Source of the DNA: a virus
Direction: 5' to 3' (one strand)
DNA: 64,000 nucleotides
Virus record (IMG/VR): IMGVR_UViG_3300029337_000249
Below the pieces are notes generated by a model, which had not been told where the DNA came from, ran no database searches, and saw only the letters and a list, made by a program, of their open reading frames with translations. The position numbers and the translations under genes were made by a program. Positions 4,403 to 59,833 of this stretch are shown here, piece after piece (the first letter of the stretch is position 1; every line of letters begins with the position of its first letter).

Positions 4403-4475
4403 ACATGTTATGCCGCCACGGATTCGGATTCCGGACGGCTGTTTTTATATCAGGAGAGAAGAGGTGAAACCCAGA

Positions 4476-12934: not shown

Positions 12935-15162
12935 GCACAGAACAGAATAAGACTTTGACCCTCGGCAGCCTCTTTGATGGCTCCGGGGGTTTTCCATTGG
13001 GCGGTCTGTTGACCGGGCAGATCACTCCGGTGTGGAGCAGCGAGATCGAGCCGTTTGCCATCCGGGTCACGACGAAGCGTCTGCCGCAGGTGAAACACTA
13101 CGGAGATGTGTCTGCCATCAGTGGAGCAGACCTGCCGCCCGTGGACATTATCACCTTTGGCAGTCCCTGTCAGGATATGTCCATCGCTGGTAAGCGGGAC
13201 GGTCTGGATGGTTCACGGTCCAGTCTGTTTTACGAAGCAATCCGAATCGTGAAGGAAATGAGGTGCAAGACCAATGGAGAAAAACCAAGATTTATCGTGT
13301 GGGAGAATGTGCCAGGGGCCTTCTCTTCAAACAAGGGACAGGACTTCAAAGCAGTCCTCGAAGCCGTCATCGGTGTTAAAGAACCGGCCGCCTCGGTGCC
13401 TGCGCCTGAGAAGAAAGGATGGCCCGACGCTGACTACTACGTGGGAGACGGATGGAGCGTCGCGTATCGAGTTCTTGATGCACAATGGTGGGGCGTTCCC
13501 CAAAGAAGAAAACGTATCTACCTTGTCGCAGATTTTGCAGACCAGAGTGCCCCAAAGGTACTATTTGAGTCCGAAGGCGTGTCTCGGTATTCTGCGGAGA
13601 GCTTCCGTGCGTGGCAAAGAGCTGCCGCCTGTGCTGAAAGAAGCATTGGAGAGACAGGCTGCGGAAACGGAAGAATCGTCTTGAATGATCAGGGTGGAGC
13701 ACAGATGGATGTATCCCATGAAGTGACCGGGACGCTCCGGGCAGAGGATCATGGGCATCCACCCTGCGTTATGGAGGCGGCAGGCTTCTGCACTGAACAC
13801 TCCGCCAATGCCAGAAGCATCGGGTACGAGGAAGAACGCTCACCGACACTCCGGGCCGGTGTGGTTCCGGCCGCCATTGCACTGGAAAATCATCCTGCGG
13901 ACAGCCGGGTGAAGATTTCCGAGGATGGCAAGGTGCAGACGCTGACCAGCCGGTGCGGTACAGGCGGCGGCAATGTTCCGCTGGTCATGGGAGTTGAAAA
14001 CTCTGTGGAAAGCCCGGTGAAAGATGTTGAAAACTCCCCGGCGGTCACACTGAAGATCCGCTCTGGATGTGATGGAGGCGGAAAGGGCGCGATCTGGCAA
14101 GAGGAAAAATCGGCAACTCTGGGCTGCAACAATGACCAGACGCTGTTCGTTCCGAAAGCCTACGGTGTCTGTTCCAAGGCAAGCCACTCCATGATGAGTG
14201 ACAATCCGCACAGCGGTTTCTATGAAGCCAGCACCTCTCGGACACTCGACCGCAGCGGTGGTGACCCGACCTGCAATCAGGGAGGGCTGTGCATCTGTGA
14301 ACCTGTTGTCTGCGTGGATCAGGGTGGCGGAAAGTCGAACTGCACGGTGGACGAACAGGTGGCACCGCCTTTGTCCTGTACCCACGGCGGCGCACCGGCA
14401 GTGGCTTTTACCCAGAATCAGCGGGATGAAGTCCGGGATCTGGGAGATAAGTCAGCAGCACTGGCAGCAGAGCCGGGGATGAAGCAGCAGACCTTCGTGG
14501 CACAGCCGGAAGATGTGACCGCATTCCACGTAAATCAGCGCAATGAGCTGATCGACCTGCATGGAAAGTCCGGCGCACTCATGGCGACCCGGAGCGACCA
14601 GATGCAGACCTTTGTGCTGCAGGGCAACATGATCGGCCGCAAGGACGAGAACGGCCCGCAGGGGGATGGGGTCAATGAGGATGTCTGCTTCACGCTGGAT
14701 GCCACTGACCGCCATGCAGTCTGTGTCCCGGAAAGCGTCTATGCCATGACTACCGGCTCCTATATGCAGGTGGAGAAAGAGGTTGCGCCGACCTTGATGG
14801 CACGGGACTACAAAGACCCGACCACCATTGCACCGGTGCCGCAGGATGTCAGCTACACAGTCCGCCGACTGACACCAATCGAATGCGCCCGGTTGCAGGG
14901 CTTTCCGGACTGGTGGTGCAGTGACCTCGGCGCGGAGAATCCGACCGATGAAGAGCTGGCATTCTGGGCAGATGTGTTTGAAACACACCGCAGGATCGTG
15001 ACGCAGGCGAAGAAACCAAAGACAGAGAAACAGATCCGCAAATGGCTGGCTGACCCGTATTCGGATGCGGCAGAGTACAAACTCTGGGGCAACGGCGTGG
15101 CACTGCCCTGTGTTTACTTCGTTCTGGCCGGCATCGCATGGTACGCAGGTCTGGAAGAATAA
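12931..15162 (+). CDS. DNA (cytosine-5)-methyltransferase, unusually long (743 aa) with large repetitive variable region
   Basis: Motif I FDGSGG, motif IV GSPCQDMS, motif VI ENV, QRRKR, C-terminal RRLTPIECARLQGFPDWW; ~430-aa insert containing many T-L dipeptide segments and an internal tandem repeat (AFTQNQRDEVRDLGDKSAAL / AFHVNQRNELIDLHGKSGAL). Confidence 0.9.
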   Translation: MSTEQNKTLTLGSLFDGSGGFPLGGLLTGQITPVWSSEIEPFAIRVTTKRLPQVKHYGDVSAISGADLPPVDIITFGSPCQDMSIAGKRDGLDGSRSSLFYEAIRIVKEMRCKTNGEKPRFIVWENVPGAFSSNKGQDFKAVLEAVIGVKEPAASVPAPEKKGWPDADYYVGDGWSVAYRVLDAQWWGVPQRRKRIYLVADFADQSAPKVLFESEGVSRYSAESFRAWQRAAACAERSIGETGCGNGRIVLNDQGGAQMDVSHEVTGTLRAEDHGHPPCVMEAAGFCTEHSANARSIGYEEERSPTLRAGVVPAAIALENHPADSRVKISEDGKVQTLTSRCGTGGGNVPLVMGVENSVESPVKDVENSPAVTLKIRSGCDGGGKGAIWQEEKSATLGCNNDQTLFVPKAYGVCSKASHSMMSDNPHSGFYEASTSRTLDRSGGDPTCNQGGLCICEPVVCVDQGGGKSNCTVDEQVAPPLSCTHGGAPAVAFTQNQRDEVRDLGDKSAALAAEPGMKQQTFVAQPEDVTAFHVNQRNELIDLHGKSGALMATRSDQMQTFVLQGNMIGRKDENGPQGDGVNEDVCFTLDATDRHAVCVPESVYAMTTGSYMQVEKEVAPTLMARDYKDPTTIAPVPQDVSYTVRRLTPIECARLQGFPDWWCSDLGAENPTDEELAFWADVFETHRRIVTQAKKPKTEKQIRKWLADPYSDAAEYKLWGNGVALPCVYFVLAGIAWYAGLEE

Positions 15163-15294
15163 ACTGGCCCGCTATATTACTAGGTAGAAAGCGACCTGGT
15201 GATATGGTGGGCTTACATATTGGTCCTATTTACACAACAGATTTTGCGGTCCCTTGTGTAAATGGTCGAACATGAAGAATATCGCGAAATGGCC

Positions 15295-15323
15295 TTGCTA
15301 TTCATCCATTTTAGAGTGATATA
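15295..15323 (+). promoter_or_regulatory. variant copy of repeated promoter cassette (-35 TTGCTA, 17-nt spacer, -10 GATATA) preceded by inverted repeat ATTTACACAA-N16-TTGTGTAAAT (15232-15267)
   Basis: Shares GGCCTTGCTAT...CTACCGAAAAG context with other cassette copies; upstream of acidic protein gene. Confidence 0.45.
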
Positions 15324-15385
15324 TGTGCTACCGAAAAGAACATCGGGATGCACAAAAACAAATGAACGAAAAGGAGCGATGAATT

Positions 15386-16558
15386 ATGTTGAAATTTAAA
15401 CTGAACGTAGCCGAGAGAAAGACCCTCGCAAAACGCATGGAGGAGCTGACCGGCATCCACCCTTACTATACCAAAGCACCTCTGTATTCTTACGACATCG
15501 GGAGCTACACCATCGACCGGAATGGCAACCTTCTGGTCGAGCCGGAGAATGCAGATGCCGAGCTGCTGACGACCCTGCTGAATGAGGGACTGATCCGCGG
15601 CGGCGAGAGTATTGAGAGCACGGATGACCAGCCGGAGGACACAGAGCTGACAGCGGATATGGATGAGGAGCCTGTGACCGAAGCGGAAACTGAGCAGATG
15701 CCCGAAGCAGAGCTGGAGGTTCTGGACGAGCAGGAATCCGAAGATGCAAGTACCGCAGAAGCCGAATCCGAGGATGCATTGGAGCCGGATAATGCGGCAG
15801 AGGATGAGCCGGATGCAGAGGGGCCGGAAAGCGAGGAGCAATCAGAAGCAGAAGACCAGCCGGAAGAGGTGCCGCTGGACTTGGAACTTGCATTCCCGGT
15901 CAGCCAGCACAACGGTGTGACTCTCCGCAACCTGGTCAACCTTCTTTACAGCCGCGGCAAGCTCATCGGCAAGGCGACTGGCGGAAACTTCCATGTGGAA
16001 GAGGGACTGGTGGAGAAGCTGAAAGACGATAGCTGCACCTTTGCCATCATGAACTTCATCAACGCGGTAAGCGACTATGAGGTTGAGCATGGTGCTGCAC
16101 TGGAAGGCCTGAAGATTACCACCGAGAAGGTCACCTTCACCGGCTTCCCGACCGCACCGGACCACGAACACCTGACGGCTTTTGCACAGCTGGCGGTGCT
16201 GATGAACCAGCAGGCGATCAGCCAGAAGCGTATCCAGGCAAAGGATGTCAACGATGAGAATGAGAAATACGCACTCCGCACATGGCTCCTGCGGCTGGGG
16301 ATGAACGGTCCGGACTTCAAAGAAACACGCAAGATCCTCATGGAGAATCTTTCCGGCCATGCGGCTTTCCGCACGGATGAGGAAGCACAGAAGTTCCTCG
16401 CAAGGGAAAAGGCAAAACGGGATGCCCTGAAAGCCGCGAAACAGGCGGCACAGGAGGGCAGTGCCTCCGCAGGGGAAACGATCGCATCAGCAGATGCCGA
16501 GCCGACACAGCCCGACTGTGGGGCAGACACGGCGCAGATGCTGGAGGCGGGAGCGTAA
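15386..16558 (+). CDS. acidic protein: N-terminal ~70-aa domain, ~110-aa D/E-rich disordered linker, C-terminal domain homologous to the C-terminal half of the adjacent amidoligase (lacks catalytic N-terminal motifs)
   Basis: AAGGAG RBS; C-terminal TLRNLVNLLYSRGKLIGKA..KVTFTGF..AFAQLAVLMNQ..KYALRTWLLRLG aligns with amidoligase TIRNLVNIMAAHEQQIGRA..TIEFRLF..AYIQLCLAMSQ..KYAMRCWMLRLG. Confidence 0.65.
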   Translation: MLKFKLNVAERKTLAKRMEELTGIHPYYTKAPLYSYDIGSYTIDRNGNLLVEPENADAELLTTLLNEGLIRGGESIESTDDQPEDTELTADMDEEPVTEAETEQMPEAELEVLDEQESEDASTAEAESEDALEPDNAAEDEPDAEGPESEEQSEAEDQPEEVPLDLELAFPVSQHNGVTLRNLVNLLYSRGKLIGKATGGNFHVEEGLVEKLKDDSCTFAIMNFINAVSDYEVEHGAALEGLKITTEKVTFTGFPTAPDHEHLTAFAQLAVLMNQQAISQKRIQAKDVNDENEKYALRTWLLRLGMNGPDFKETRKILMENLSGHAAFRTDEEAQKFLAREKAKRDALKAAKQAAQEGSASAGETIASADAEPTQPDCGADTAQMLEAGA

Positions 16559-16714
16559 GCTCCCAAGCTCCCAATGGGGGACGGAAAATATGCGAGACCC
16601 TCTTTCATTGTAACGATATTAACTCTGAAAATGTACATTATCAAGCGGATAAACTGCAGAAATGTACACGATCATTCCTCTCGATATTTGTCGAATATAT
16701 GTTCTTTTATGGCC

Positions 16715-16743
16715 TTGCTATTATGTGCACCTGACGGTAATAT
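16715..16743 (+). promoter_or_regulatory. repeated promoter cassette copy (-35 TTGCTA 16715-20, 17-nt spacer, -10 TAATAT 16738-43) driving amidoligase gene
   Basis: Consensus-like sigma-70 spacing; conserved flanks GGCCTTGCTAT and CACATACCGAAAGGGA shared with 7 other copies; two AAATGTACA half-sites upstream (16631-16675). Confidence 0.55.
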
Positions 16744-16790
16744 GCACATACCGAAAGGGAAAACAAGGAAAAAACAAAGGAGAACATACC

Positions 16791-17729
16791 ATGAACGATA
16801 AAACAAGAGAGCAGATTGAAGCCATGAAGAACCAGACCATCGGAGTTGAGATCGAGATGAACAACATCACCAGAGAAAAAGCGGCAAGAAAGGTCGCGGA
16901 GTACTTCGGAACCAGAGCATGGAACGCCGCCGGCGAGTACGGATATTACAGCTGGGCTTGCAAGGACCAGCAGGGCAGGGTTTGGAAATTCCAGAGGGAT
17001 GTGAGCATCTACGGACCGGACGCAGAAAAATGCGAACTGGTCACCCCGATCCTCACCTACGACGACATCGAAACCTTGCAGGAGATTATCCGGCTGCTCC
17101 GAAAGGCAGGCGCAAAGAGCGGCCCAAGCCGCGGATGCGGAGTCCACATCCACATCGGCAAAGGGGACCACACCGCAAAGACCATCCGCAACCTTGTGAA
17201 CATCATGGCGGCACACGAACAGCAGATCGGCAGAGCCATCCGGATTGACGCAGGGCGCACCGGACAATATTGCCAGGTGGTCAATCACCGCTTCCTCGAC
17301 CGGCTGAACCGTGAGAAGCCGACCACCATGCGCAAGCTGGAAGACATCTGGTACGAAGGCAACGGTTCCAGCTGGGAAAACCGGAATGCCCACTACAATT
17401 CAAGCCGGTACCATATGCTGAACCTCCATGCCACCTTCACGAAAGGGACCATTGAATTCCGCCTTTTCCAATTCGCAGACCCAGCGGACGGAAAGCGCAA
17501 CGGACTGCACGCCGGTGAGATGAAAGCCTACATCCAGCTTTGCCTCGCAATGAGCCAGCTTGCCAAGATGGTCAGAACGGCAAGCCCGAAGCCCCAGCAG
17601 ACCGACAACGAAAAGTACGCCATGCGGTGCTGGATGCTGAGGCTGGGATTCATCGGGGATGAATTTGCAACGGCAAGGGAGATCCTTCTGCGGAACATGG
17701 AGGGCAACGCATCCTGGCGGAACAAATAA
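16791..17729 (+). CDS. amidoligase (Amidoligase_2 / GCS2-glutamine-synthetase-like carboxylate-amine ligase family)
   Basis: N-terminal GVEIEMN and HIHIG motifs, ELRLF-like TIEFRLF block typical of phage/Firmicutes putative amidoligase family; neighbourhood with AIG2/GGCT genes as described for this family. Confidence 0.8.
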   Translation: MNDKTREQIEAMKNQTIGVEIEMNNITREKAARKVAEYFGTRAWNAAGEYGYYSWACKDQQGRVWKFQRDVSIYGPDAEKCELVTPILTYDDIETLQEIIRLLRKAGAKSGPSRGCGVHIHIGKGDHTAKTIRNLVNIMAAHEQQIGRAIRIDAGRTGQYCQVVNHRFLDRLNREKPTTMRKLEDIWYEGNGSSWENRNAHYNSSRYHMLNLHATFTKGTIEFRLFQFADPADGKRNGLHAGEMKAYIQLCLAMSQLAKMVRTASPKPQQTDNEKYAMRCWMLRLGFIGDEFATAREILLRNMEGNASWRNK

Positions 17730-17796
17730 GCCGGGATGCACGGGCACCTTTTGGGCGGGCAACCGCCCTTGAGGTGGTAGAAGGAGGTGCAGGTTT

Positions 17797-18033
17797 ATGA
17801 AAAGCACGTTAAAAAATGAAAACACACCGGGCGGCAGAGCCTTTAAGGTGACCATCACCGAGACCTACCAGAGGACGGTGACCATTTATGAATCCGAGAT
17901 GAAAGAGCCGACCGTGGAGGAAGCCCAGCGTGTGGCAGAGGACTGGTGGCGGGACAGCCAGATCGAGCTTGGGAAAGAGGATTTCCAGGGCGTGGAGTTC
18001 ACTGGCAGGGAGGACGGTGAGGCAGATGTTTGA
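17797..18033 (+). CDS. small protein (78 aa) between amidoligase and GGCT genes; possible substrate/partner
   Basis: AGGAGG RBS (17776-17786); stop overlaps next ATG; no domain. Confidence 0.5.
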   Translation: MKSTLKNENTPGGRAFKVTITETYQRTVTIYESEMKEPTVEEAQRVAEDWWRDSQIELGKEDFQGVEFTGREDGEADV

Positions 18034-18547
18034 ACTGATCAGCCGAAACCCATCCAGATATTATCTTGCCTACGGAAGCAACCTCGACATGGAACGGATG
18101 GGAAAGAGATGCCCTTACGCTGTGGTGGTCGGCACGACCGAGATCATGGGCTACCGGCTCCTGTTCAAAAAGAGTAAGACCGGCTGCTATGCCACCATCG
18201 AGCAGGATGCCAATGAAAGCGTACCGGCGGTGGTCTGGAAGCTCTCGGAATACGATGAGCTCCTGCTGGACCGATACGAAGGCTGCCCAAGATACTATTA
18301 TAAGAAGCAGTTCCAGCTTCCGGTCTGGAACCTGAACGGGAACCGCATGAAAAAGGCAAAGCCCTGCATCGCTTATGTGATGCACGAGGATCGGAGGCTT
18401 GGCTGCCCGGATGCCGAGTATTTTGAACTGCTGCGTGGCGGATACAGCGACTGGGAATTTCCGCTGGACACACTGAAGCGTGGACTGGCAGCCAGCATCG
18501 GAAGGGCGGAAGCCATCCGGTATCTGAAGAAGCGGCAGATGATGTAA
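18026..18547 (+). CDS. gamma-glutamyl cyclotransferase-like (AIG2/GGCT family) protein 1
   Basis: Signature YLAYGSNL near N-terminus and conserved catalytic Glu context (VWKLSEYDELLLDRYEG). Confidence 0.8.
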   Translation: MFELISRNPSRYYLAYGSNLDMERMGKRCPYAVVVGTTEIMGYRLLFKKSKTGCYATIEQDANESVPAVVWKLSEYDELLLDRYEGCPRYYYKKQFQLPVWNLNGNRMKKAKPCIAYVMHEDRRLGCPDAEYFELLRGGYSDWEFPLDTLKRGLAASIGRAEAIRYLKKRQMM

Positions 18548-18677
18548 GAGTACACGATCACAGGGAAAAAACATTGTGCAGTATATGATGCTCATCGGCC
18601 TTGATAAATCAGGGCAAAAGAGTGATATATACCATACCGCCAGACAAGAGCGGAGAAAACCGAAGGGAGAGATTCAA

Positions 18678-19157
18678 ATGAAGAACAAGAAATATTACAT
18701 CGCCTACGGCAGCAACCTGTCGGTGGAGCAGATGGCAGACCGATGCCCGGATGCAAAAATTGCAGGGCAGGCGGTGCTGGCCGGCTGGGAGCTTTTGTTC
18801 CGCGGCTGCGCCACCATCGCACCGAACCCGAAGAAGAACACGCCGGTTCTGGTGTGGGAGATCTCGGAAAGGGACGAAGGAAACCTCGACCTCTATGAGG
18901 GCTACCCGAACTACTACCGCAAGGAAGATCTGAACATTGAACTGCTCCGGGAAGGGGCAGAGCCGGAGATGGTGACCGCAATGGTCTACATCATGGAGAA
19001 CGACTTCGGGCACCGCGCACCGAGCCGGTATTACTACAAAGTTCTGCATGACGGCTACAAGGCATTCCACTTCCCGATGCACATCCTCGAAGGTGCGCTG
19101 AAGGAATGCATGGATAAGGATGCCGCCCAGAAGATGATCGGGGAGGTGCAGTCATGA
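18678..19157 (+). CDS. gamma-glutamyl cyclotransferase-like (AIG2/GGCT family) protein 2
   Basis: YIAYGSNL signature, VWEISERDEGNLDLYEG; paralog of previous gene; AGGGAGA RBS. Confidence 0.8.
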   Translation: MKNKKYYIAYGSNLSVEQMADRCPDAKIAGQAVLAGWELLFRGCATIAPNPKKNTPVLVWEISERDEGNLDLYEGYPNYYRKEDLNIELLREGAEPEMVTAMVYIMENDFGHRAPSRYYYKVLHDGYKAFHFPMHILEGALKECMDKDAAQKMIGEVQS

Positions 19158-19621
19158 ATTTCGCAGATCAGAAAATGGTCGAGAAGTTGAGAAAAGAGTT
19201 CCCGGTCGGATGTCGGATCGTCCTCGATGAGATGGATGACAGGCAGGCACTGCCCATCGGAACGCAGGGGACCTGCAACGGGGTCGATGATGCCGGAAAC
19301 ATCTTAGTGAGCTGGGACACCGGAAGCCATCTGAACGTTGCCTACGGTGCGGACAGTTGCCACCGTGTGGCTTCGGAAGTTGAGGTCAAGGTGTCGCTCG
19401 ACCGCCTTGGTAAAACGCGACAGACCGGTCCACGTTGCCCCAGGTGCGGAGCAAAGCCAGACTGCTACGACCATCAGCAGCAGGCACTCAGCCGAAGGGC
19501 GGACATCCAGATCTGTAACCGATGCGGAACGGAGGAAGCGTTAGAGGACATTGCATGGGGCGGACACCAAAACCTGCCTTTGGCAGACTGGGCAATCGTG
19601 AAAGGGGGCTGGGTCGAATGA
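19154..19621 (+). CDS. DUF4314 domain protein with C-terminal zinc ribbon
   Basis: VGCRIVLDEMDDRQALPIGTQGTCNGVDDAGNILVSWDTGSHLNV matches DUF4314; CPRCG...CNRCG ribbon. Confidence 0.7.
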   Translation: MNFADQKMVEKLRKEFPVGCRIVLDEMDDRQALPIGTQGTCNGVDDAGNILVSWDTGSHLNVAYGADSCHRVASEVEVKVSLDRLGKTRQTGPRCPRCGAKPDCYDHQQQALSRRADIQICNRCGTEEALEDIAWGGHQNLPLADWAIVKGGWVE

Positions 19622-19989
19622 AGGTCCTTCTGATCAAACCGATGGAACATCCGCAGGTGGTGGACATCGAAAACTCCCTGCAAGAGTTCTACCGCATCCT
19701 CGACTGCGACTGCATCACAGCCACATACCCGTGGGAAGAATGCGCTGCCCTGGTTACTGATGACAACGGGCTGTTCACCGAGAAGCCATTCAGCAGATAC
19801 ATCCCGGAGCTGGAGCAGCCCATCAAGGGAAACTTCTTCATTTGCGGATTGGGCGAGGAAGATTTCGCAGAGCTGCCCCAAGATCTGATTCAGAGATTCA
19901 GGGAACGCTTCTGGGTGCCGGAGGCATTTGTCAGCATGTTCGGGCAGATGGCAGTCATCCAGATGGATGACGGAACGAAGCCGGAATAA
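19618..19989 (+). CDS. DUF3846 domain protein
   Basis: MKVLLIKPMEHPQVVDIENSLQEFYRIL... matches DUF3846 N-terminus; ATGA overlap with previous gene. Confidence 0.65.
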   Translation: MKVLLIKPMEHPQVVDIENSLQEFYRILDCDCITATYPWEECAALVTDDNGLFTEKPFSRYIPELEQPIKGNFFICGLGEEDFAELPQDLIQRFRERFWVPEAFVSMFGQMAVIQMDDGTKPE

Positions 19990-20010
19990 GATACCGCAAT
20001 CAGAAAAATA

Positions 20011-20046
20011 CCCTCTCGGCCAGAAAAGACCGGGAGGGCTTGGTTT
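20011..20046 (+). terminator. rho-independent terminator candidate (CCCUCUCGG/CCGGGAGGG stem, U-rich tail)
   Basis: 9-bp stem with one G-U pair followed by CTTGGTTT. Confidence 0.45.
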
Positions 20047-20060
20047 AACAGGAGGAGCCT

Positions 20061-20252
20061 ATGGGACACAGAAAGATGCCTGCTTATGGCGAGAGGGAAC
20101 ACGGCGGCAGATACATTCTGGATGAATACGAATGGTCGAGAAATCACTGCAAGGCGGTGACCATCCGCAGATGGAAAAGAGACCTGAAAAAGAAAGCCAG
20201 GGCGCATAACCGCAGGGTGATGCATCAGGCAATGCAGGGCGAAGCCGATTAG
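20061..20252 (+). CDS. hypothetical small basic protein (63 aa)
   Basis: AGGAGGAG RBS 6 nt upstream of ATG. Confidence 0.45.
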   Translation: MGHRKMPAYGEREHGGRYILDEYEWSRNHCKAVTIRRWKRDLKKKARAHNRRVMHQAMQGEAD

Positions 20253-20416
20253 ACGGAAAATGGGGGCCTCAAAAGAATGAGAACCCCCTTCCAGTTTACT
20301 GTATGTTACCTCTATAAAGCAACGATAGCAAGAAGAACCGCCGCCATAATGTACACAAACATCTGGCAGCGGTTTTGTGTATCATACCAAACCAAAACGA
20401 AGGGTACGAGGCAGAG

Positions 20417-20434
20417 CCCCAGCCTCTGCTGGGG
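20417..20434. terminator. hairpin CCCCAGC-ctct-GCTGGGG between convergent genes (possible bidirectional terminator)
   Basis: Perfect 7-bp inverted repeat between + gene ending 20252 and - gene ending 20452. Confidence 0.35.
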
Positions 20435-20451
20435 GAGCCTTTGGGGATCCC

Positions 20452-20703
20452 TTAGAAGAAATCCCTCATGCTCATGCCGACCTCGTTCAGTCGTTCCTCC
20501 ATGCAGTGGTAGTGCCAATCCTCTTCCTCTTCTTTGTCTTCTTCCTCAAGCTCCTCTGGAAAAGGGTCGTGCCGCCAGCCGGCTTTCTGGTATTCTTCTT
20601 CCCGGATGTCGTTGCGGTCGTAAATGTCCAGCTCGTATTCTTCTTCAAGCTCTGCGATGCGGTTTTCGATTGCGGCTTCAACTTCTGTAATGGTCTTTTT
20701 CAT
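20452..20703 (-). CDS. small acidic protein (84 aa), only minus-strand gene in this block
   Basis: Minus-strand ATG at 20703 with GGAGGA RBS (rc of 20710-20716); sequence MKKTITEVEAAIENRIAELEEEYELDIYD...EEEDKEEEEDWHYHC. Confidence 0.55.
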   Translation of the reverse strand: MKKTITEVEAAIENRIAELEEEYELDIYDRNDIREEEYQKAGWRHDPFPEELEEEDKEEEEDWHYHCMEERLNEVGMSMRDFF

Positions 20704-20853
20704 GGTTTTTGTCCTCCGTTTTTGGTTTGGTTTTCTTTGCTTTCGTTGTGTGTATAATGCCGCAGAAACACATATATAGCAAGTCAATCAGGGGTCATAT
20801 ATGTACCAAACATGAGGGACGAAGATCGTTGATAATATGACGTTTTATGGCCT

Positions 20854-20882
20854 TGCTATCACAGGGCGGTGACGGTAATATA
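20854..20882 (+). promoter_or_regulatory. repeated promoter cassette copy (-35 TTGCTA, 17 nt, -10 TAATAT)
   Basis: Conserved GGCCTTGCTAT...GACGGTAATATACAGCTAC...AAAGGGGG. Confidence 0.55.
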
Positions 20883-20912
20883 CAGCTACAAAAAGCAAAG
20901 GGGGACAGAAAA

Positions 20913-21089
20913 ATGGCTGATTGGAGAACATGGAAAAAAGGAAGAAAGACAACATGGCACTGGAACGAATTCGATGGTAGCGGAAGCCGGGAAGGAATCA
21001 TCACCGAGGTTCATGAAGACCATGCGATTATGGAAGCAGACGGCATGCACCTCTGGATCGACGATGACACGGCAGAGATGTTCAGCTAA
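20913..21089 (+). CDS. hypothetical small protein (58 aa)
   Basis: ATG 7 nt after AAAGGGGGA RBS of cassette. Confidence 0.5.
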   Translation: MADWRTWKKGRKTTWHWNEFDGSGSREGIITEVHEDHAIMEADGMHLWIDDDTAEMFS

Positions 21090-21169
21090 GAAAACGGGGA
21101 GGGAAACCTCCCCGGATAAACACATAAATCCACCAGATCAGGGTGCAGATGATCATGTACTTTAGCCGC

Positions 21170-21198
21170 TTGATAGTGTCCGGCAGTGACGGTAATAT
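21170..21198 (+). promoter_or_regulatory. repeated promoter cassette copy (-35 TTGATA, 17 nt, -10 TAATAT)
   Basis: Conserved CACATAAAT...GATGATCATGTACTTTAGCCGCTTGATAGTGT...GACGGTAATATACAGCTACC. Confidence 0.55.
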
Positions 21199-21228
21199 AC
21201 AGCTACCAAAACGAAAGGGGCAAAGAAC

Positions 21229-21435
21229 ATGGAACGCTACACTTACGAGATTACCTTTACACGGCTGGATGGACAGCCGGATGAAATCCAGCAGCACACC
21301 AGTGAGGAGCTGGCAAGAGAATGCTTCCGGCTTTTCGATGAGCCGGACAGCGCAGAGATGTACAGCAAAATTGAATTTAGCCGCCATGACTGGGAGACAG
21401 GCATGGATGAGATTCTGGAAACGATGACATTTTGA
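21229..21435 (+). CDS. hypothetical small protein (68 aa)
   Basis: Follows cassette RBS AAAGGGGC. Confidence 0.5.
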   Translation: MERYTYEITFTRLDGQPDEIQQHTSEELARECFRLFDEPDSAEMYSKIEFSRHDWETGMDEILETMTF

Positions 21436-21450
21436 GAGGAGAACAAAAAC

Positions 21451-21711
21451 ATGACCTACACAAAAATCAACCTTTATCTTGCAAACGGAATTCCAGAGGC
21501 ACTCAGCAACCTCTGGTACGGAAGCGACAGTGCGGTGGTCGAGATCAGGGATGCCGTTGAGGATGCGAAGAACGGCAAGGACCTTCTGAACCGCATCCAG
21601 AAGATGAAGCTCTTTCGGAAATTCACCCTCGACAGGGAGAACGACAAGCGCATCCGCTTCAAGGGAACGGACTGCTGGGGCAACGTAAGCTACCTCGAAA
21701 TCATCCGCTAA
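21451..21711 (+). CDS. hypothetical small protein (86 aa)
   Basis: GAGAGGAG RBS; no domain. Confidence 0.5.
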   Translation: MTYTKINLYLANGIPEALSNLWYGSDSAVVEIRDAVEDAKNGKDLLNRIQKMKLFRKFTLDRENDKRIRFKGTDCWGNVSYLEIIR

Positions 21712-21840
21712 AGGCAAGAACGACAGGCGCAAGGGGCTGGAAATGACCAGCCTTTTGCTCGTGTCTGTCTTCCGAAAGCTGGCATGAAAAGCACATAAAT
21801 ATGACAATTACAGGATTGAATGATCGTGTAGTTTAGCCGC

Positions 21841-21869
21841 TTGATAGTGTTTCGAGGTGACGGTAATAT
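21841..21869 (+). promoter_or_regulatory. repeated promoter cassette copy (-35 TTGATA, 17 nt, -10 TAATAT)
   Basis: Same conserved flanks (GTAGTTTAGCCGCTTGATAGTGT / GACGGTAATATACAGTCACCGAAAGGGG). Confidence 0.55.
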
Positions 21870-21913
21870 ACAGTCACCGAAAGGGGAAAACAACAAAAAC
21901 GGAGGATACGACA

Positions 21914-22363
21914 ATGACGAAGAACGAAGACCGCATCAATAAACTTTTCAAGGAACTGGTACCGGATACGGGCAAGGCAGACAGCCTCGCAGGGGAGCTG
22001 GTAAGGGCAATGAGCCGCATCGGATACCGCTTTTACAACGACGGCGACCAGCTGGGCATCGGCTACGGCAAGGAAACCTGCAACCCTGCAGGGCGGTTCC
22101 TTGGAGCCAAGGGCAACGACAAAATCGCAAAGCTGACTGCAGATGCCTGGGCAGTCTACAGTGAGGAAGCCTACGAAAAGGTTCTGGACATCCTTTGCGG
22201 AGCGGTTGCCGACTATGTTGAGCAGAACCCAGACCTTAGAAACCAGCCGACCGAAGATATGTGGGACTTCAAGGATGAGGAAGAAGACCAGGATGACAGC
22301 TGGGATGAAGAGGAAGATGACTGGGGCGAAGAGGAAGATTACGAGGACGAAGAAGACTACTAA
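21914..22363 (+). CDS. hypothetical protein (149 aa) with extremely acidic W/D/E-rich C-terminal tail
   Basis: GGAGGA RBS; tail SWDEEEDDWGEEEDYEDEEDY. Confidence 0.55.
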   Translation: MTKNEDRINKLFKELVPDTGKADSLAGELVRAMSRIGYRFYNDGDQLGIGYGKETCNPAGRFLGAKGNDKIAKLTADAWAVYSEEAYEKVLDILCGAVADYVEQNPDLRNQPTEDMWDFKDEEEDQDDSWDEEEDDWGEEEDYEDEEDY

Positions 22364-22460
22364 GCCAGAGAAACACATGGGGCTTGCCGGTAACGGCAGC
22401 CCTTTTCTTCTGCTGTAATACGCACAGTTCCGGGCGGCTATCTTTGTGTAGTATAGCCGC

Positions 22461-22489
22461 TTGATAGTGTGTGACATAGACGGTAATAT
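22461..22489 (+). promoter_or_regulatory. repeated promoter cassette copy
   Basis: GTATAGCCGCTTGATAGTGT...GACGGTAATATGCACATACCGAAACGG. Confidence 0.55.
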
Positions 22490-22533
22490 GCACATACCGA
22501 AACGGAAAACCAAGAAAAACGGAGGAAACCACC

Positions 22534-22725
22534 ATGAAGAAGAACATCACCAAGGAAGAGGAAAAAGCCCTGCTGGAGATCGCCAAGCGCCTGATGGCAG
22601 CGGTGGACAGCCGAGGCGACCTCGAAGCCCGCGACAATGACAGCGAGGACTTCATTGAGGTTCCGGTCTGGGGCATCCAGAAAGCAATGGAGGAAGCCTA
22701 CCTGCTGGGACGGATGACCAGATAA
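22534..22725 (+). CDS. hypothetical small protein (63 aa)
   Basis: GGAGGAAACC RBS. Confidence 0.5.
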   Translation: MKKNITKEEEKALLEIAKRLMAAVDSRGDLEARDNDSEDFIEVPVWGIQKAMEEAYLLGRMTR

Positions 22726-22853
22726 ACCGGCAGCCCCCGACACAGCCCCACACAGGGGCTTGTGCCACGGGTGGCAAAACGATCCGAAGGAACCGACAAC
22801 GCCCCACACAGGGGCAGATGTGGCGGCGTGGATGCGCCGGGAAGGAGAAGCAC

Positions 22854-23060
22854 ATGGAAGAACGGATGATGAATAACATCGTGGAAATCTACAACCACAT
22901 GGATGACAGCGATAAGGATGCCTTCACGTTGGAAGATGCCGAGGATATGGTGGAAGACCAGATCAGGATGGATAAGGAAGCCGGACGGGAACCGCTGGCA
23001 TATGACCCGCAGTTCTTCTACGATACCATTGTGGAACTCATGGAGCAGGACGAAGAGTGA
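22854..23060 (+). CDS. hypothetical small acidic protein (68 aa)
   Basis: GGAAGGAG RBS before ATG 22854. Confidence 0.45.
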   Translation: MEERMMNNIVEIYNHMDDSDKDAFTLEDAEDMVEDQIRMDKEAGREPLAYDPQFFYDTIVELMEQDEE

Positions 23061-23109
23061 TGTACATTCTGCCTGGTATTCCGGGCAGAAGATCGTGTAC
23101 TTTAGCCGC

Positions 23110-23138
23110 TTGCTATCCTTTGCACCTGACGGTAATAT
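23110..23138 (+). promoter_or_regulatory. repeated promoter cassette copy (-35 TTGCTA)
   Basis: GTACTTTAGCCGCTTGCTATCCTTTGCACCTGACGGTAATATGCACATACCGAAAGGG. Confidence 0.55.
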
Positions 23139-23195
23139 GCACATACCGAAAGGGAAAAGCCACAAGGGAAAAACGAAAACACGGAGGATTTTACC

Positions 23196-23480
23196 ATGAA
23201 AAAGCATTTGATCGACTTTCCAGAAAACAACATCAGCATTGAGAGTTTCTACGACCGACTCAGACCTTGCTACGACAGCATCATGCAGTTCGGTGACCGG
23301 GTTTTGGTTGCCCAGATGAACTGGAACGGCATGCTGGAGGGAGCGGTATACGGATTTGTGGAAGACCCAGAGGAAGGCTGGTCACCGATTGAGTGCCGAC
23401 TGGAGCTTCTGAAGATTTCCGATGAGATCTACACGGATGCCGGTCACGCGATCGAGTGGTGCATCAGGAACGCACACTGA
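23196..23480 (+). CDS. hypothetical protein (94 aa)
   Basis: GGAGGATTTTACC RBS. Confidence 0.5.
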   Translation: MKKHLIDFPENNISIESFYDRLRPCYDSIMQFGDRVLVAQMNWNGMLEGAVYGFVEDPEEGWSPIECRLELLKISDEIYTDAGHAIEWCIRNAH

Positions 23481-23594
23481 AAAAAGAGAAGAGCTCCTTC
23501 GGGAGCTTTTGCTCGTAGTGGTGAGATTTCCCCAGTGTGGAAATACACATAAATCCGACAAAATCATGCGCAGATGATCGTGCAGCATAGCCGC

Positions 23595-23623
23595 TTGCAT
23601 GTGTGTCGGATAGACGGTAATAT
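23595..23623 (+). promoter_or_regulatory. repeated promoter cassette copy (-35 TTGCAT)
   Basis: CACATAAATCCGAC...GATGATCGTGCAGCATAGCCGCTTGCATGTGT...GACGGTAATATACAGTCAC. Confidence 0.5.
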
Positions 23624-23681
23624 ACAGTCACAACGAAGGGGAAAGCCCTACGGAAAACAAAACACACGGAGGATACAGACC

Positions 23682-24059
23682 ATGACGAACAAAGCAAAAA
23701 CCTACCTTAGGAACATTCAGGAAGCCGATACCGAGAAGAAGCTGATTGGCATCGAGATCGCCTTCAAGCAGGACATGACCCTTAGCTGCAACGACCTCGG
23801 AAGCCTTTGCAGGGCGGCAGAGGACAGGCGGTACAGCCTGCGTAACAATGAGGAGACGCTGAAGCTGAAGCAGATCCTTTTCTTCCGGACGAAAGCGGAG
23901 ATGGATGCCTACCACGACATGAGCCGCAAGCCGGAAGACTGGACGGAAGCGGAGATCGAGCAGCAGAGAAGCCGCTTCTGCAGCGTCTGGCAGGTCATCG
24001 AGGAAGCAGAACTGGTCGATGAATACGAGGCTTGGAAGGAAGCCAACCCCAACGCCTAA
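23682..24059 (+). CDS. hypothetical protein (125 aa)
   Basis: GGAGGATACAGACC RBS. Confidence 0.5.
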   Translation: MTNKAKTYLRNIQEADTEKKLIGIEIAFKQDMTLSCNDLGSLCRAAEDRRYSLRNNEETLKLKQILFFRTKAEMDAYHDMSRKPEDWTEAEIEQQRSRFCSVWQVIEEAELVDEYEAWKEANPNA

Positions 24060-24181
24060 CAGCACCCAAAAGGTACACGCCCCGAAAAGGGGCTGTGCCT
24101 CGTATCCGATGTGTTTGATATAGATTTCAAGGACTTCTTCGGAGGTCCTTTTTCTTTACCCATTTTCGAGGAGAGGAGGAG

Positions 24182-24667
24182 ATGCCAATGGCTACCAGAG
24201 GCAGAAAACCAAAGCCGACCGCCATGAAGGAACTGGAAGGCAATCCGGGCAAGCATCCGCTGAATACCAGCGAACCGAAGCCCAACAAGAAAGCGCCGGC
24301 CTGTCCGAAGTGGCTGGAGCCGGAAGCAAAGAAAGAATGGCGCAGACTTGCCAAACAGATGGAAGCCATCGGCATCCTGACCGAAGTGGACATGGCGGCC
24401 TTTGCCGGTTACTGTCAGGCGTATGCCCGATGGAAGGAGGCAGAGGAGTTCATCACCCAGCACGGCACTATCGTCAAGACCCCGTCCGGGTACTGGCAGC
24501 AGGTGCCGCAGGTGTCCATCGCCCAGACCTATCTGAAGATCATGAACAAGTTTGCAGAGCAGTTCGGTCTGACCCCGTCCTCCCGAAGCCGGATCATTGC
24601 TTCGGACGGCGGTCCTGCGGATGCAGCTGATGAGATGGAGAATCTGCTGGGAGGAGGTGGAAGCTGA
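24182..24667 (+). CDS. terS: terminase small subunit, P27 family
   Basis: MATRGRKPKPTAMKELEGNPGKH...KWLEPEAKKEWRRLAKQME...AFAGYCQAY matches phage_term_smal P27 family. Confidence 0.85.
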   Translation: MPMATRGRKPKPTAMKELEGNPGKHPLNTSEPKPNKKAPACPKWLEPEAKKEWRRLAKQMEAIGILTEVDMAAFAGYCQAYARWKEAEEFITQHGTIVKTPSGYWQQVPQVSIAQTYLKIMNKFAEQFGLTPSSRSRIIASDGGPADAADEMENLLGGGGS

Positions 24668-51813: not shown

Positions 51814-52116
51814 ATGAATGAAAAGTTCATGGCAGAAGATGTGTTAAGACCGTATGGCATTACGCTGTACTATAAGGGATGTGAGTATCTGAGGGATGCG
51901 ATCGTCCTGCATTGGCATCGGCCGGATCTGAAACCGTGTCAGCTCTTACAGCTTGTTGCAGATCAGAAGGGGGTTAAGAAGAGCGGTGTCCTCAGTGCCA
52001 TTTCCACGATTTCTAATGTGGCGTGGGAAGTGAATGGGATAGGCGCTGAAAAGCCGATGTCAACCATGAAGTTTGTCTGTAGGATACTGGAAGAAGCAGA
52101 CAGGAATAGAGAATAA
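51814..52116 (+). CDS. stand-alone Spo0A C-terminal (DNA-binding) domain protein
   Basis: GITLYYKGCEYLRDAIVL...SAISTISNVAWEV...KFVCRILEEA matches Spo0A_C (GVPxHIKGYxYLREAI...AIEVAW...); AAGGAG RBS; no receiver domain. Confidence 0.7.
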   Translation: MNEKFMAEDVLRPYGITLYYKGCEYLRDAIVLHWHRPDLKPCQLLQLVADQKGVKKSGVLSAISTISNVAWEVNGIGAEKPMSTMKFVCRILEEADRNRE

Positions 52117-56177: not shown

Positions 56178-56211
56178 GACCAGTTGCAAGGCTGGAAGAA
56201 AGGAGCAGATT

Positions 56212-59700: not shown

Positions 59701-59833
59701 GTATGTTCCTCCTTATGTGCACCCGCATAAGGCAGTTACGATTATCCCGCAGAGAAAAATACATAGCAACTTAATTACAGAAATTCTAAGGCCGCAAAGG
59801 GCTACACCTCTATCTGTTATGTGGTCTAAGGCT

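What the first reader, a model, noticed from the sequence alone, without database searches (positions are those of the whole stretch)
15295..23650. Eight copies of a conserved ~60-90-bp promoter/5'-UTR cassette, each driving a small gene
A near-identical module recurs at 15295, 16715, 20854, 21170, 21841, 22461, 23110 and 23595. It comprises an upstream box (CACATAAAT...GATGATCGTGTAC in the longer copies), a -35 (TTGATA/TTGCTA), an exact 17-nt spacer ending in GACGG, a -10 TAATAT, and then ACAGCTACCGAAAGGGG containing the RBS. Conservation extends well beyond what RNA polymerase needs, including the spacer and leader. The cassette may therefore also carry a regulator or antiterminator site, or an RNA element. 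It may equally be a recombination hotspot that shuffles small morons between phages. Two copies bracket the amidoligase module.
Basis: seen in the sequence. Interest (0 to 1): 0.55.

Follow-up and report, generated by a model that had tools for sequence, protein, structure and literature searches.

The report
Portable promoter cassettes in gut prophage
A temperate phage of gut Clostridia gives each small accessory gene its own copy of one promoter-plus-leader module, and related phages have gained, lost and swapped these genes by recombining between copies, much like the 'PeSL' cassettes of T4-like phages.

Summary
The repeat is real and far beyond chance. GACGGTAATAT and TTGMTA-N17-TAATAT each occur seven times in 64 kb, with about 0 expected. 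Seven near-identical copies lie at 16715-23623. The copy at 15295 and an unlisted one at 18601 form a second core class (AGAGTGATATAT). Two more copies face the minus strand.

The window is a temperate phage. The array sits between the DNA methylases and terS and drives an amidoligase/GGACT module and small ORFs.

The same cassette occurs in over 200 viral and genomic loci from Oscillospiraceae and Lachnospiraceae, up to 8 per array, in front of at least 35 protein families. Orthologues found through their proteins keep four blocks intact while the sequence between them drifts: an upstream box, an extended -35, an extended -10 and the leader 5' end.

The predicted transcript starts with a Shine-Dalgarno-like run, often within a small 5' hairpin (fold z about -3). 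Related phages differ by whole units, and chimeric cassettes mark the crossovers.

Best reading: sigma-A-type portable expression cassettes that also act as recombination substrates. This is a new variant of the PeSL kind. Promoter activity, timing and the role of the G/C-rich flanks remain inferred.

The parts
15270..15347 (+). Cassette c1, class B core. -35 TTGCTA 15295-15300; in-register -10 GATATA 15318-15323 within AGAGTGATATAT; predicted +1 at A15330; 5' hairpin CCGA/TCGG 15331-15346. Drives ORF 15386-16558.
16690..16764 (+). Cassette c2, class A. -35 16715-16720; GACGG+TAATAT 16733-16743; predicted +1 at A16750. Drives the amidoligase operon (16791-17729, 17797-18033, 18029-18547).
16616..16673 (-). 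Divergent minus-strand promoter TTGATA-17-TAATAT (16644..16616) with its own GATCGTGTAC box (16664-16673), head-to-head with c2. It would make an RNA antisense to the 3' end of ORF 15386-16558.
   Evidence: (kept in 28 of 35 orthologous loci)
18576..18655 (+). Drives 18678-19157 (GGACT), 19154-19621 (DUF4314), 19618-19989 (DUF3846) and 20061-20252.
20740..20782 (-). Diverged minus-strand cassette. TTGCTA-17-CATTAT (20782..20754); leader ACGAAAGCAAAG. Drives ORF 20452-20703(-).
20828..20899 (+). Cassette c4, class A. -35 20853-20858; -10 20876-20881; predicted +1 at A20888. Here the SD-like run is the real RBS of ORF 20913-21089.
21120..21218 (+). Cassette c5, long form. CACATAAAT 21121; box GATCATGTAC 21151; -35 21170-21175; -10 21193-21198; predicted +1 at A21205. 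Drives 21229-21435 and 21451-21711.
21791..21890 (+). Cassette c6, long form. CACATAAAT 21792; box 21822; -35 21841-21846; -10 21864-21869; predicted +1 at A21876. Drives ORF 21914-22363.
22438..22510 (+). Cassette c7. -35 22461-22466; -10 22484-22489; predicted +1 at A22496. Drives 22534-22725 (DUF6900) and 22854-23060. It is the crossover partner of c8 in phages that lack this unit.
23085..23159 (+). Cassette c8. Box GATCGTGTAC 23091; -35 23110-23115; -10 23133-23138; predicted +1 at A23145. Drives 23196-23480 (Nmad4).
23545..23663 (+). Cassette c9, long form. CACATAAAT 23546; box 23576; -35 TTGCAT 23595-23600; -10 23618-23623; predicted +1 at A23630; complete two-tier 5' hairpin within 23630-23655. 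Drives ORF 23682-24059, the last gene before terS.
21095..21114 (+). One example of the non-conserved G+C-rich hairpins (terminator-like) that precede most cassettes. Others start at about 16549, 21727, 22379 and 23486, and one lies at 24129-24150 in front of terS.
15386..24059 (+). The accessory-gene array itself, about 20 mostly small ORFs in about 10 transcription units, between the C5 methylase (12931-15162) and terS (24182-24667).

Best explanation
The repeats are a family of portable expression cassettes.

Anatomy of one cassette:
- A housekeeping-sigma (sigma-A) type promoter: TTGMTA, a 17-nt spacer, then TAATAT.
- Conserved flanking blocks: a box (A)TGATCGTGTAC at about -56 to -46, TAGCCGC just 5' of the -35 hexamer, and GG or GACGG just 5' of the -10 hexamer.
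- A conserved start of the transcript, A-CCG-AAA-GGGG. This run is as complementary to the 16S rRNA 3' end as a true RBS. In the full form it is the 5' arm of a small hairpin that begins 1-3 nt from the 5' end.
- After that come the gene's own leader and RBS.
- Most cassettes are preceded by a non-conserved hairpin that ends the previous unit.

What the cassette does:
- It turns each accessory gene or small operon in the region upstream of terS into an autonomous transcription unit. All units share the same start signals and probably the same 5'-end protection of the mRNA.
- Because 50-110 bp are shared between copies, the cassettes are substrates for homologous recombination. This deletes, inserts and swaps whole units and patches of the cassettes themselves among related phages. 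In this respect it works like the PeSL cassettes of T4-type phages.

What is shown here: the repeat and its non-randomness, its wide distribution, its fixed position relative to ORFs, block-wise conservation, unit-wise variation of arrays, chimeric cassettes, and the excess folding and anti-SD complementarity of the leader 5' end.

What is inferred: promoter activity, sigma-A dependence, the exact start site, the stabiliser function and the time of expression.
For: Non-random repeat.

Promoter geometry. The spacer is exactly 17 nt in all seven class A copies. In 412 related cassettes, 394 have an ATG ORF starting 20-70 nt after the -10 hexamer. The median ORF is 94 aa, and the ORFs fall into 35 protein families.

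Distribution. There are at least 120 IMG/VR stretches and multi-copy arrays in Faecalibacterium, Lawsonibacter, Blautia, Wujia, Acetatifactor and Eubacterium genomes. A second phage clade has 5-8 cassettes per array. The core also occurs in annotated Ruminococcus and Evtepia phages.

Unbiased footprints:
- When cassettes are found by the upstream box alone, GACGGTAATAT is intact in 99 of 105 unique copies while the spacer varies.
- Orthologues found through the downstream protein (66-100% aa identity) keep the extended -10 at 0.99 identity and the leader 5' end at 0.98. The spacer is at 0.40 and third codon positions at 0.74.
- Amidoligase orthologues keep class A down to 63% aa identity. The others carry class B in the same register.

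Upstream hairpins. A hairpin of -14 kcal/mol or stronger lies upstream of 63% of cassettes, against 15% of shuffled controls.

Leader:
- Anti-SD complementarity peaks at +3 to +12 (-8.8 kcal/mol). This equals the peak at the true RBS, and there is none in between.
- The first 32 nt of 145 non-redundant long leaders fold at -5.96 kcal/mol against -1.83 for shuffles, mean z = -3.0. The first paired base is usually at +2 to +4.
- Covariation counts exceed all 500 shuffles and all slid controls.

Recombination:
- Array orders differ by whole units.
- L162, L101 and L012 have one chimeric cassette where the window has c7, a gene unit and c8. The crossover lies inside the shared GACGGTAATATGCACATACCGAAA.
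- An extra unit in L148 is bounded by the c7 core.
- 15 of 40 breakpoint clusters fall inside cassettes, P = 0.003.
- The same small set of -35, discriminator and upstream variants is shared among orthologous positions.

Precedent: PeSLs (PMC2839356, PMC4122927); STAB-SD (PMC4113751).
Against: - There is no transcript data, so promoter activity and the start site are predictions.
- TAATAT matches TATAAT at only 4 of 6 positions, and the in-register hexamer of class B (GATATA) is poor.
- The conserved G/C-rich flanks (TAGCCGC, GACGG) and the upstream box are not what sigma-A or an A/T-rich UP element needs. Something else probably reads them.
- The 5' hairpin is missing from 5 of the 9 + strand copies in the window. 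The outer helix is paired in only 57% of cells.
- Many loci are close relatives, so counts are not independent events.
- Ends of BLAST alignments are a crude proxy for breakpoints, and the enrichment is only about twofold. One clean deletion (L088) has its breakpoints at the RBS and ATG rather than in a cassette.
- The first two collection scans were ascertained on the motif itself.
Confidence: 0.68

Rival explanations
1. The cassettes form a regulon. The conserved non-hexamer blocks (upstream box, TAGCCGC, GACGG or the class B TTAGAGT, and perhaps the leader start) would be binding sites for a dedicated phage or host regulator. That regulator would switch the whole accessory array on or off together, for instance silent in the lysogen and on at entry or induction. 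This adds to the best explanation rather than replacing it.
For: Conservation is block-wise, with free sequence between the blocks. Two alternative conserved motifs occupy the same place 5' of the -10 hexamer, which suggests two control classes. The box occurs one helical turn further from the -35 in the minus-strand promoter at 16644. Near-consensus promoters inside a prophage would otherwise be constitutive.
Against: No candidate protein was found. The CI-type operator of this phage (TGCTAC-N7-GTAGCA at 59838 and 59869) is absent from the cassettes. The CGGTA-N9-TACCG dyad is present in only 3 copies and is absent from class B. The GAC of GACGG is variable in the second clade, where only GGTAATAT is kept. 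Spo0A-type boxes are not enriched.
Confidence: 0.35
2. The promoters are read by an alternative or phage-encoded sigma-like factor, such as ORF 3303-3845, rather than by the housekeeping sigma. The extended -35 and -10 blocks would be its recognition elements.
For: The extended conserved -35 and -10 blocks are longer than sigma-A needs. In the structure model of ORF 3303-3845 (pLDDT 87), the C-terminal 65 residues or so resemble sigma region 4 (Foldseek probability 0.87-0.89, TM about 0.7 on the target).
Against: The hexamers and the 17-nt spacing fit sigma-A. ORF 3303-3845 has no Pfam, NCBIfam or PHROG hit, and all its Foldseek E-values are above 0.09. It has no tblastn homologue in 50,697 annotated phages, including those that carry the cassette core. 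The same cassette occurs in hosts of two families, which points to conserved host machinery.
Confidence: 0.08
3. The extended similarity has no function of its own. It would be a by-product of recent duplication and gene conversion of one promoter, and only the two hexamers matter.
For: Patches are exchanged between copies. Many sampled phages are close relatives.
Against: Conversion would homogenise whole tracts. Instead, short variable segments persist between invariant blocks, even in orthologues at 63-75% aa identity and in a second clade. Across 12 orthologues of one gene, 28 of 50 columns in the four blocks of cassette c6 are invariant, against 22% of third codon positions, P = 1e-7.
Confidence: 0.1
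4. The element is mainly a structured RNA, such as a riboswitch, an antiterminator target or a small RNA, and the promoter resemblance is secondary.
For: The leader 5' end folds better than chance and shows some compensatory changes.
Against: There is no Rfam match. The structure is a 7-bp two-tier hairpin, is absent from many copies, and most of the conserved sequence lies upstream of any plausible start. Every unit has its own promoter, so read-through control is not needed.
Confidence: 0.04
5. The repeats are an assembly artefact or a miniature transposable element.
For: None beyond the repetition itself.
Against: The copies differ from one another. The same array is found in isolate genomes and in hundreds of independent assemblies. 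Orientation and distance to the downstream gene are always the same, and there are no terminal inverted repeats or target duplications.
Confidence: 0.01

Closest known systems
PeSL (promoter-early stem-loop) cassettes of T4-type myoviruses (Arbiol et al. 2010, PMC2839356; Comeau et al. 2014, PMC4122927)
   Same: Both are repeated motifs of about 70-100 bp with a housekeeping-sigma promoter, associated with a stem-loop. Both are concentrated in a hyperplastic region immediately upstream of small genes of unknown function. In both, related phages differ by units bounded by the motif, and a single chimeric motif is left after a deletion.
   Different: There is no sequence homology. The host is a Gram-positive anaerobe and the phage is temperate, with a small terminase of the P27 family, not a lytic T4-like myovirus. 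The conserved flanks are G/C-rich rather than A/T-rich. The terminator hairpin upstream is not part of the conserved motif. The conserved part instead runs into the transcript (SD-like run and 5' hairpin). Neither promoter or terminator activity nor mini-circles have been tested here.
Phage early-promoter families with an extended consensus, such as T4 early promoters and the SPO1 host-takeover module (own knowledge, not tested here)
   Same: Many copies of a housekeeping-sigma promoter whose conservation extends beyond the two hexamers, driving small genes of unknown function.
   Different: Those belong to lytic phages and their timing is known. Here the time of expression is unknown and the phage is temperate.
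5' mRNA stabilisers of Firmicutes: STAB-SD of cry3A (Agaisse and Lereclus 1996, via PMC4113751) and 5'-terminal stem-loops (reviewed in PMC3997798)
   Same: [quoted passage not shown] Its anti-SD complementarity equals that of the real RBS. There is also often a hairpin within a few nucleotides of the 5' end.
   Different: Stabilisation has not been measured. In two window copies the same sequence is the real RBS. In the full form the SD-like run is partly buried in the hairpin, so the two mechanisms may be alternatives.
Morons of lambdoid phages: a gene with its own promoter and terminator inserted between phage genes (own knowledge)
   Same: Each unit is promoter, gene(s), terminator, placed between the replication/modification module and the packaging module.
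   Different: Morons normally have unrelated promoters. Here about ten units share one promoter family. Expression from the prophage has not been shown.
Repeated regulatory sites of mycobacteriophages: stoperators of cluster A and start-associated sequences of cluster K (own knowledge)
   Same: Short oriented motifs repeated in many intergenic regions of one phage genome.
   Different: Those are 13-17-bp repressor or translation-associated sites, not whole promoters with a leader. No repressor link was found here.

Membership tests
PeSL-type mobile regulatory cassette | A repeated motif that contains a housekeeping-sigma promoter (-35, about 17 nt, -10) | tested here: met
   TTGMTA-N17-TAATAT occurs 7 times against 0 expected. 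The logo from 228 unique copies agrees.
PeSL-type mobile regulatory cassette | A stem-loop (terminator or attenuator) that is part of the motif or adjacent to it | tested here: met
   A hairpin of -14 kcal/mol or stronger lies within 145 nt upstream in 63% of cassettes against 15% of shuffles. A G-run/C-run hairpin just after the start is present in 89 of 199 leaders. The upstream hairpin is not sequence-conserved.
PeSL-type mobile regulatory cassette | Concentrated in a hypervariable region, directly upstream of small genes of unknown function | tested here: met
   All window copies lie in 15.3-23.7 kb. An ORF starts 20-70 nt downstream. There are 35 downstream families, mostly without known function.
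PeSL-type mobile regulatory cassette | Indels between related phages are bounded by the motif and leave a chimeric motif | tested here: met
   Chimeric c7/c8 cassette in L162, L101 and L012. Insertion bounded by the c7 core in L148. 15 of 40 breakpoint clusters lie in cassettes, P = 0.003.
PeSL-type mobile regulatory cassette | Promoter and terminator activity shown experimentally; mini-circles detected | not testable with these tools
   This needs reporter assays and outward-facing PCR on phage lysates.
PeSL-type mobile regulatory cassette | Carried by a T4-type myovirus, with sequence relationship to the described PeSLs | tested here: not met
   The window is a temperate phage with serine recombinases, a CI-like repressor and a P27-family small terminase. 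The motif sequence is unrelated to the AT-rich PeSLs described. It therefore works like a PeSL but is not a member by descent.
Sigma-A (housekeeping) promoter | Transcription starts 6-8 nt downstream of the -10 hexamer and depends on sigma-A holoenzyme | not testable with these tools
   There is only indirect support: a conserved A at the predicted +1, and the 5' hairpin begins at +2 to +4.
STAB-SD / 5' stem-loop mRNA stabiliser | An SD-like sequence or hairpin at the extreme 5' end that is separate from the initiation site | tested here: met
   There are two anti-SD peaks of equal strength, at +3 to +12 and next to the ATG, in 178 long leaders. The fold z-score is -3.0.
STAB-SD / 5' stem-loop mRNA stabiliser | The element lengthens mRNA half-life by blocking 5'-3' decay | not testable with these tools
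   This needs half-life measurements with and without the element.
Known structured RNA family (Rfam) | A match to a curated covariance model | tested here: not met
   The only hit in 15000-24500 is a chance one (E = 0.96) to an unrelated snRNA model.
Operator set of the phage CI-type repressor | Presence of the operator palindrome of the immunity region | tested here: not met
   TGCTAC-N7-GTAGCA occurs only at 59838 and 59869.

The most novel reading that the evidence does not exclude
The array would be a co-ordinately controlled counter-defence island. It lies next to terS, and if the phage packages from a cos site there, that end of the virion DNA would probably enter the cell first. The conserved G/C-rich blocks around the hexamers and the upstream box would be the platform for a still unidentified factor that fires all units together at entry. 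The cassette would also serve as a cross-family exchange currency. That exchange would let phages of Oscillospiraceae and Lachnospiraceae trade ready-to-express genes, possibly through excised cassette mini-circles.
Probability: 0.2. Interest if true: 0.7.

Novelty: new variant of a known kind. Interest (0 to 1): 0.47.

Why it matters
- The phage lineage is very common in human gut metagenomes. Hundreds of contigs carry it, and prophages at about 95% identity sit in genomes labelled Faecalibacterium and Blautia.
- A shared, portable promoter-plus-leader module explains how the accessory region of these phages turns over gene by gene. The region is rich in domains also seen in the 'polyvalent' conflict proteins of phages and conjugative elements.
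- It extends the PeSL mechanism from lytic T4-like phages of Gram-negative hosts to temperate phages of Gram-positive anaerobes.
- It defines a compact, conserved expression signal, with a candidate mRNA-stabilising 5' end, that apparently works across two families of gut Clostridia for which few genetic parts exist.
- The repeats are also a likely cause of assembly breaks and mis-joins in this region of metagenomic phage contigs.

Tried and rejected
1. Operator for the phage repressor. The immunity-region palindrome is absent from the cassettes.
2. CGGTA-N9-TACCG dyad as an operator. It is present in only 3 copies, absent from class B, and not kept in the second clade.
3. Spo0A-type boxes. 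This was prompted by the Spo0A_C-like ORF 51814-52116, but the boxes are not enriched at cassettes.
4. The 'sigma-like' ORF 3303-3845 as a dedicated factor. It has no family match, only a weak fold match to sigma region 4, and no homologue in annotated phages that have the cassette core.
5. Known RNA family. None was found.
6. Presence in plasmids. None was found, by near or by distant search.
7. Literature search for the motif itself and for this phage group. The 11-mer occurs in 4 papers, and the 3 listed are on unrelated subjects. The Heliusvirales paper does not mention promoters or this region.
8. Direct repeat TGATNGTGT (box and -35 region, 21 bp apart). It holds only in the TTGATAGTGT subclass.
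9. My first conservation profile and the fixed-distance block table for the upstream box were biased. The first was ascertained on the motif. In the second, different leader lengths shifted and cut off the box. I replaced them with protein-ascertained sets anchored on the -10 hexamer.
10. Sporulation-type, sigma-28 and ECF sigma consensus sequences were compared by eye only. None fits in both element and spacing (own knowledge, not a tool result).

Full report
**Context**

The window is a temperate tailed phage, with almost every gene on the + strand.
- The left part encodes an SNF2 helicase, a D5-type primase-helicase, a PemK-like protein, SAM synthetase, an HNH nuclease and three DNA methylases.
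- terS (24182-24667, Terminase_4), terL and the structural genes follow. After them come a holin and lysins, three large serine recombinases, and a CI-like HTH gene on the minus strand.
- The finding lies between the C5 methylase (12931-15162) and terS.
- This 9-kb stretch holds an amidoligase (16791-17729), a DpnD/PcfM-like ORF, two GGACT cyclotransferases, DUF4314, DUF3846, DUF6900, Nmad4 and about ten small ORFs with no family.
- The stretch is 95.7% identical to a prophage in Faecalibacterium intestinale CLA-AA-H281 and about 95% identical to one in a Blautia isolate.
- Among annotated phages, only one unannotated faecal contig is close in DNA sequence. Nothing matches in plasmids.

**The observation**

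Seven copies share TTGMTA, a 17-nt spacer ending in GACGG, and TAATAT. Both the two-hexamer pattern and the 11-mer GACGGTAATAT occur seven times, against essentially zero in shuffles. A profile HMM finds exactly these seven in the window.

They have the same -35, the same register and the same leader start, but AGAGTGATATAT replaces GACGGTAATAT.

Two more copies face the minus strand.
- A diverged one at 20782..20754 drives the only minus-strand gene of the array.
- A full TTGATA-17-TAATAT at 16644..16616 lies head-to-head with the amidoligase cassette.

**Anatomy**

Counting from the predicted start (the conserved A six bases after TAATAT), a cassette has these parts:
- in three copies, CACATAAAT at about -85;
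- a box (A)TGATCGTGTAC at -56 to -46;
- TAGCCGC fused to the -35 hexamer;
- a variable half-spacer;
- (G)TGACGG fused to TAATAT;
- a semi-variable 6-mer (ACAGTC, ACAGCT, GCACAT or GTGCAT);
- the transcript start ACCGAAAGGGG.

Downstream of that the leaders are gene-specific. They are A-rich and nearly U-free, and they end in a normal GGAGG RBS in 160 of 199 unique leaders. The median UTR is 42 nt. Only in the copies at 20853 and 21170 is the conserved GAAAGGGG itself the RBS.

**Distribution**

- The core pattern hits at least 120 IMG/VR stretches, with up to seven copies each, and 103 genome stretches.
- About 35 single hits are expected by chance in 596 Gb (my calculation). This accounts for the isolated hits in non-Clostridia.
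- The multi-copy arrays are all in Oscillospiraceae (Faecalibacterium, Lawsonibacter, Ruminococcus-like MAGs) and Lachnospiraceae (Blautia, Wujia, Acetatifactor).
- A profile search gives 412 cassettes of at least 35 bits. Of these, 394 have an ATG ORF starting 20-70 nt after the -10 hexamer. The median ORF is 94 aa and the ORFs fall into 35 unrelated families. Some match LPD28 or DUF7678, but most match nothing.
- A second phage clade (L025, L193, L061) has arrays of 5-8 cassettes. There the box reads TCTGTACATTTAGCCGCTTGMTA, the extended -10 is reduced to GGTAATAT, and the leader hairpin is CGG..GGGC..GCCC..CCG.
- The core also occurs upstream of the amidoligase module in annotated Ruminococcus and Evtepia phages classified as Ca. 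Heliusvirales. The paper on that lineage does not mention it.

**Is the extended conservation selected?**

The first scans were ascertained on the motif, so I repeated the test in three less biased ways.
- Copies found by the upstream box alone keep GACGGTAATAT in 99 of 105 unique cases, while the spacer varies.
- Orthologues of ORF 21914-22363 were found through the protein at 66-100% aa identity. All but the most divergent orthologues, which lack the canonical upstream box and extended -35, keep all four blocks. Identity to the window is 0.96 for the extended -35, 0.99 for the extended -10 and 0.98 for the leader start. It is 0.40 for the variable half-spacer and 0.74 for third codon positions. 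In the blocks, 28 of 50 columns are invariant against 22% of third positions, P = 1e-7.
- Amidoligase orthologues at 61-100% aa identity, some from non-gut samples, carry class A down to 63% identity. Otherwise they carry class B in the same register with the same leader start.

Variable segments that persist between invariant blocks argue against simple homogenisation by gene conversion.

**The leader**

- There is no Rfam match.
- In 178 long leaders, complementarity to the 16S rRNA 3' end has two peaks of equal strength. One is at +3 to +12 of the predicted transcript and one is next to the ATG. There is nothing between them. This is the architecture of a STAB-SD element.
- The first 32 nt of 145 non-redundant long leaders also fold much better than shuffles: -5.96 against -1.83 kcal/mol, mean z = -3.0. 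In 59% the energy is -5 kcal/mol or lower, against 8% of shuffles. Pairing usually begins at +2 to +4.
- The common form is A-CCG-AAA-GGGG-loop-CCCC-A-CGG. Other lineages have CGG..GGGCG..CGCCC..CCG, GGAC..GTCC or AAAGGG..CCCTTT.
- On a model-based alignment of 105 distinct copies, cells with changes on both sides number 30 against 10 expected. The covariation score is 0.084 against 0.041. Both exceed all 500 shuffles and all slid controls.
- The inner helix is well supported (81-89% of cells paired). The outer helix is less so (57%).
- In the window the hairpin is complete in c9 and present in other sequence forms in c1 and c3. It is decayed or absent in the rest, where only the SD-like 5' arm remains.
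- I read this as a 5'-end protection element. That is an inference from established work on RNase J and 5' stabilisers in Firmicutes, not a result obtained here.

**Recombination**

- Arrays in related phages differ by whole units. The window order is 4-6-5-1-3-2-0. Other phages lack unit 3, carry extra units (19, 23, 16, 28, 31), give gene 7 its own cassette, or end in different genes.
- In L162, L101 and L012 one cassette stands where the window has c7, two genes and c8. Its upstream half is c7-like and its downstream half is c8-like. The switch lies inside the shared GACGGTAATATGCACATACCGAAA.
- An extra unit in L148 is bounded by the c7 core.
- Of 40 clustered homology breakpoints in 20.3-24.15 kb, 15 fall in cassettes against 18% expected, P = 0.003. 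Most of the rest sit at unit boundaries where the other genome has a cassette.
- Orthologous positions carry different combinations of the same few -35, discriminator and upstream variants. One phage whose downstream protein is identical to the window's differs only in the 6-mer after the -10. This points to patch exchange between copies.
- About two thirds of cassettes are preceded by a strong, non-conserved hairpin. A unit is therefore promoter, leader, gene(s) and terminator.

**Comparison with what is known**

This is the behaviour described for PeSLs in T4-type phages. Those are repeated strong sigma-70 promoters with a stem-loop. They are concentrated in hyperplastic regions upstream of ORFans, their recombination deletes or inserts the flanked gene, and a chimeric element is left behind.

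The present family is not related to PeSLs by sequence or by lineage. It also differs in three ways: its flanks are G/C-rich, it has two core classes, and its conserved part extends into the mRNA. I therefore file it as working like a PeSL, and as a new variant of that kind.

**What remains open**

- The G/C-rich blocks around the hexamers and the upstream box are not explained by sigma-A or by an UP element.
- They do not match the CI operator, they form no consistent dyad, and no partner protein was found.
- The 'sigma-like' ORF 3303-3845 has at most a region-4-like C-terminal domain and is not found in other annotated cassette-bearing phages.
- It cannot be decided without RNA data whether the array is expressed at entry, after induction or in the lysogen.
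- If the phage packages from a cos site next to terS, the array would be at the end of the virion DNA that probably enters the cell first. That remains a conjecture (and own knowledge).

Noticed in passing
window 16616-16673, minus strand: A complete TTGATA-17-TAATAT promoter with its own GATCGTGTAC box lies head-to-head with the amidoligase cassette. It is kept in 28 of 35 orthologous loci. It would give an RNA antisense to the 3' end of ORF 15386-16558, and an ATG follows the -10 hexamer by 7 nt.
   Followed up: partly
window 16.3-24.3 kb compared with L179, L140 and L189: The same phage region is 95-96% identical in isolate genomes labelled Faecalibacterium intestinale and Blautia sp., which belong to two different families. 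This means either an unusually broad host range or a mislabelled or contaminated assembly. The Blautia copy has about 1.5 kb extra between window 24115 and 24127, just upstream of terS.
   Followed up: partly
window 51814-52116: A small ORF with a Spo0A C-terminal DNA-binding domain (PF08769, E = 3e-6) and no receiver domain, placed among the lysis genes.
   Followed up: partly
window 59700-59950: The immunity region. A CI-like HTH gene (59359-59700, minus strand) is followed by two TGCTAC-N7-GTAGCA palindromes at 59838 and 59869, which are probable operators.
   Followed up: partly
window 58684-58712: AAATACACATA occurs twice, 18 bp apart, upstream of ORF 58720-59124. It resembles the (A)CACATAAAT box of the long cassettes.
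   Followed up: no
window about 22745-22820: Two copies of the hairpin GCCCCACACAGGGGC lie between the DUF6900 gene and ORF 22854-23060. In another phage (L142) this position is occupied by a cassette.
   Followed up: no
window 53817-58512 and 60941-62782: Three large serine recombinases in one phage, two of them adjacent.
   Followed up: no
window 4410-5126 and 8050-9117: A 238-aa ORF has a PemK/MazF toxin domain behind an N-terminal extension. The phage also encodes a SAM synthetase, upstream of three DNA methylases.
   Followed up: no
window 15386-16558 and 16791-17729: The 390-aa ORF driven by c1 hits the same PHROG as the amidoligase (phrog_2443). By eye, the two share a C-terminal YA(L/M)R.W(L/M)LRLG motif. 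In other elements a 216-aa relative is driven by a canonical cassette.
   Followed up: partly
L144 2510-2570 (also L009, L069, L107, L168): The cassette core (CTTGATA-N12-GACGGTAATAT-N7-ACGAAAGGGGG) also lies directly upstream of a serine recombinase gene in another kind of Clostridial element. It has none of the upstream box, and apparently sits inside the 3' end of the preceding ORF.
   Followed up: partly
L025 4150-13571; L193; L061: A second phage clade carries 5-8 cassettes per array, with a variant box and a well-formed two-tier leader hairpin. The same small genes appear in different orders in the three loci.
   Followed up: partly
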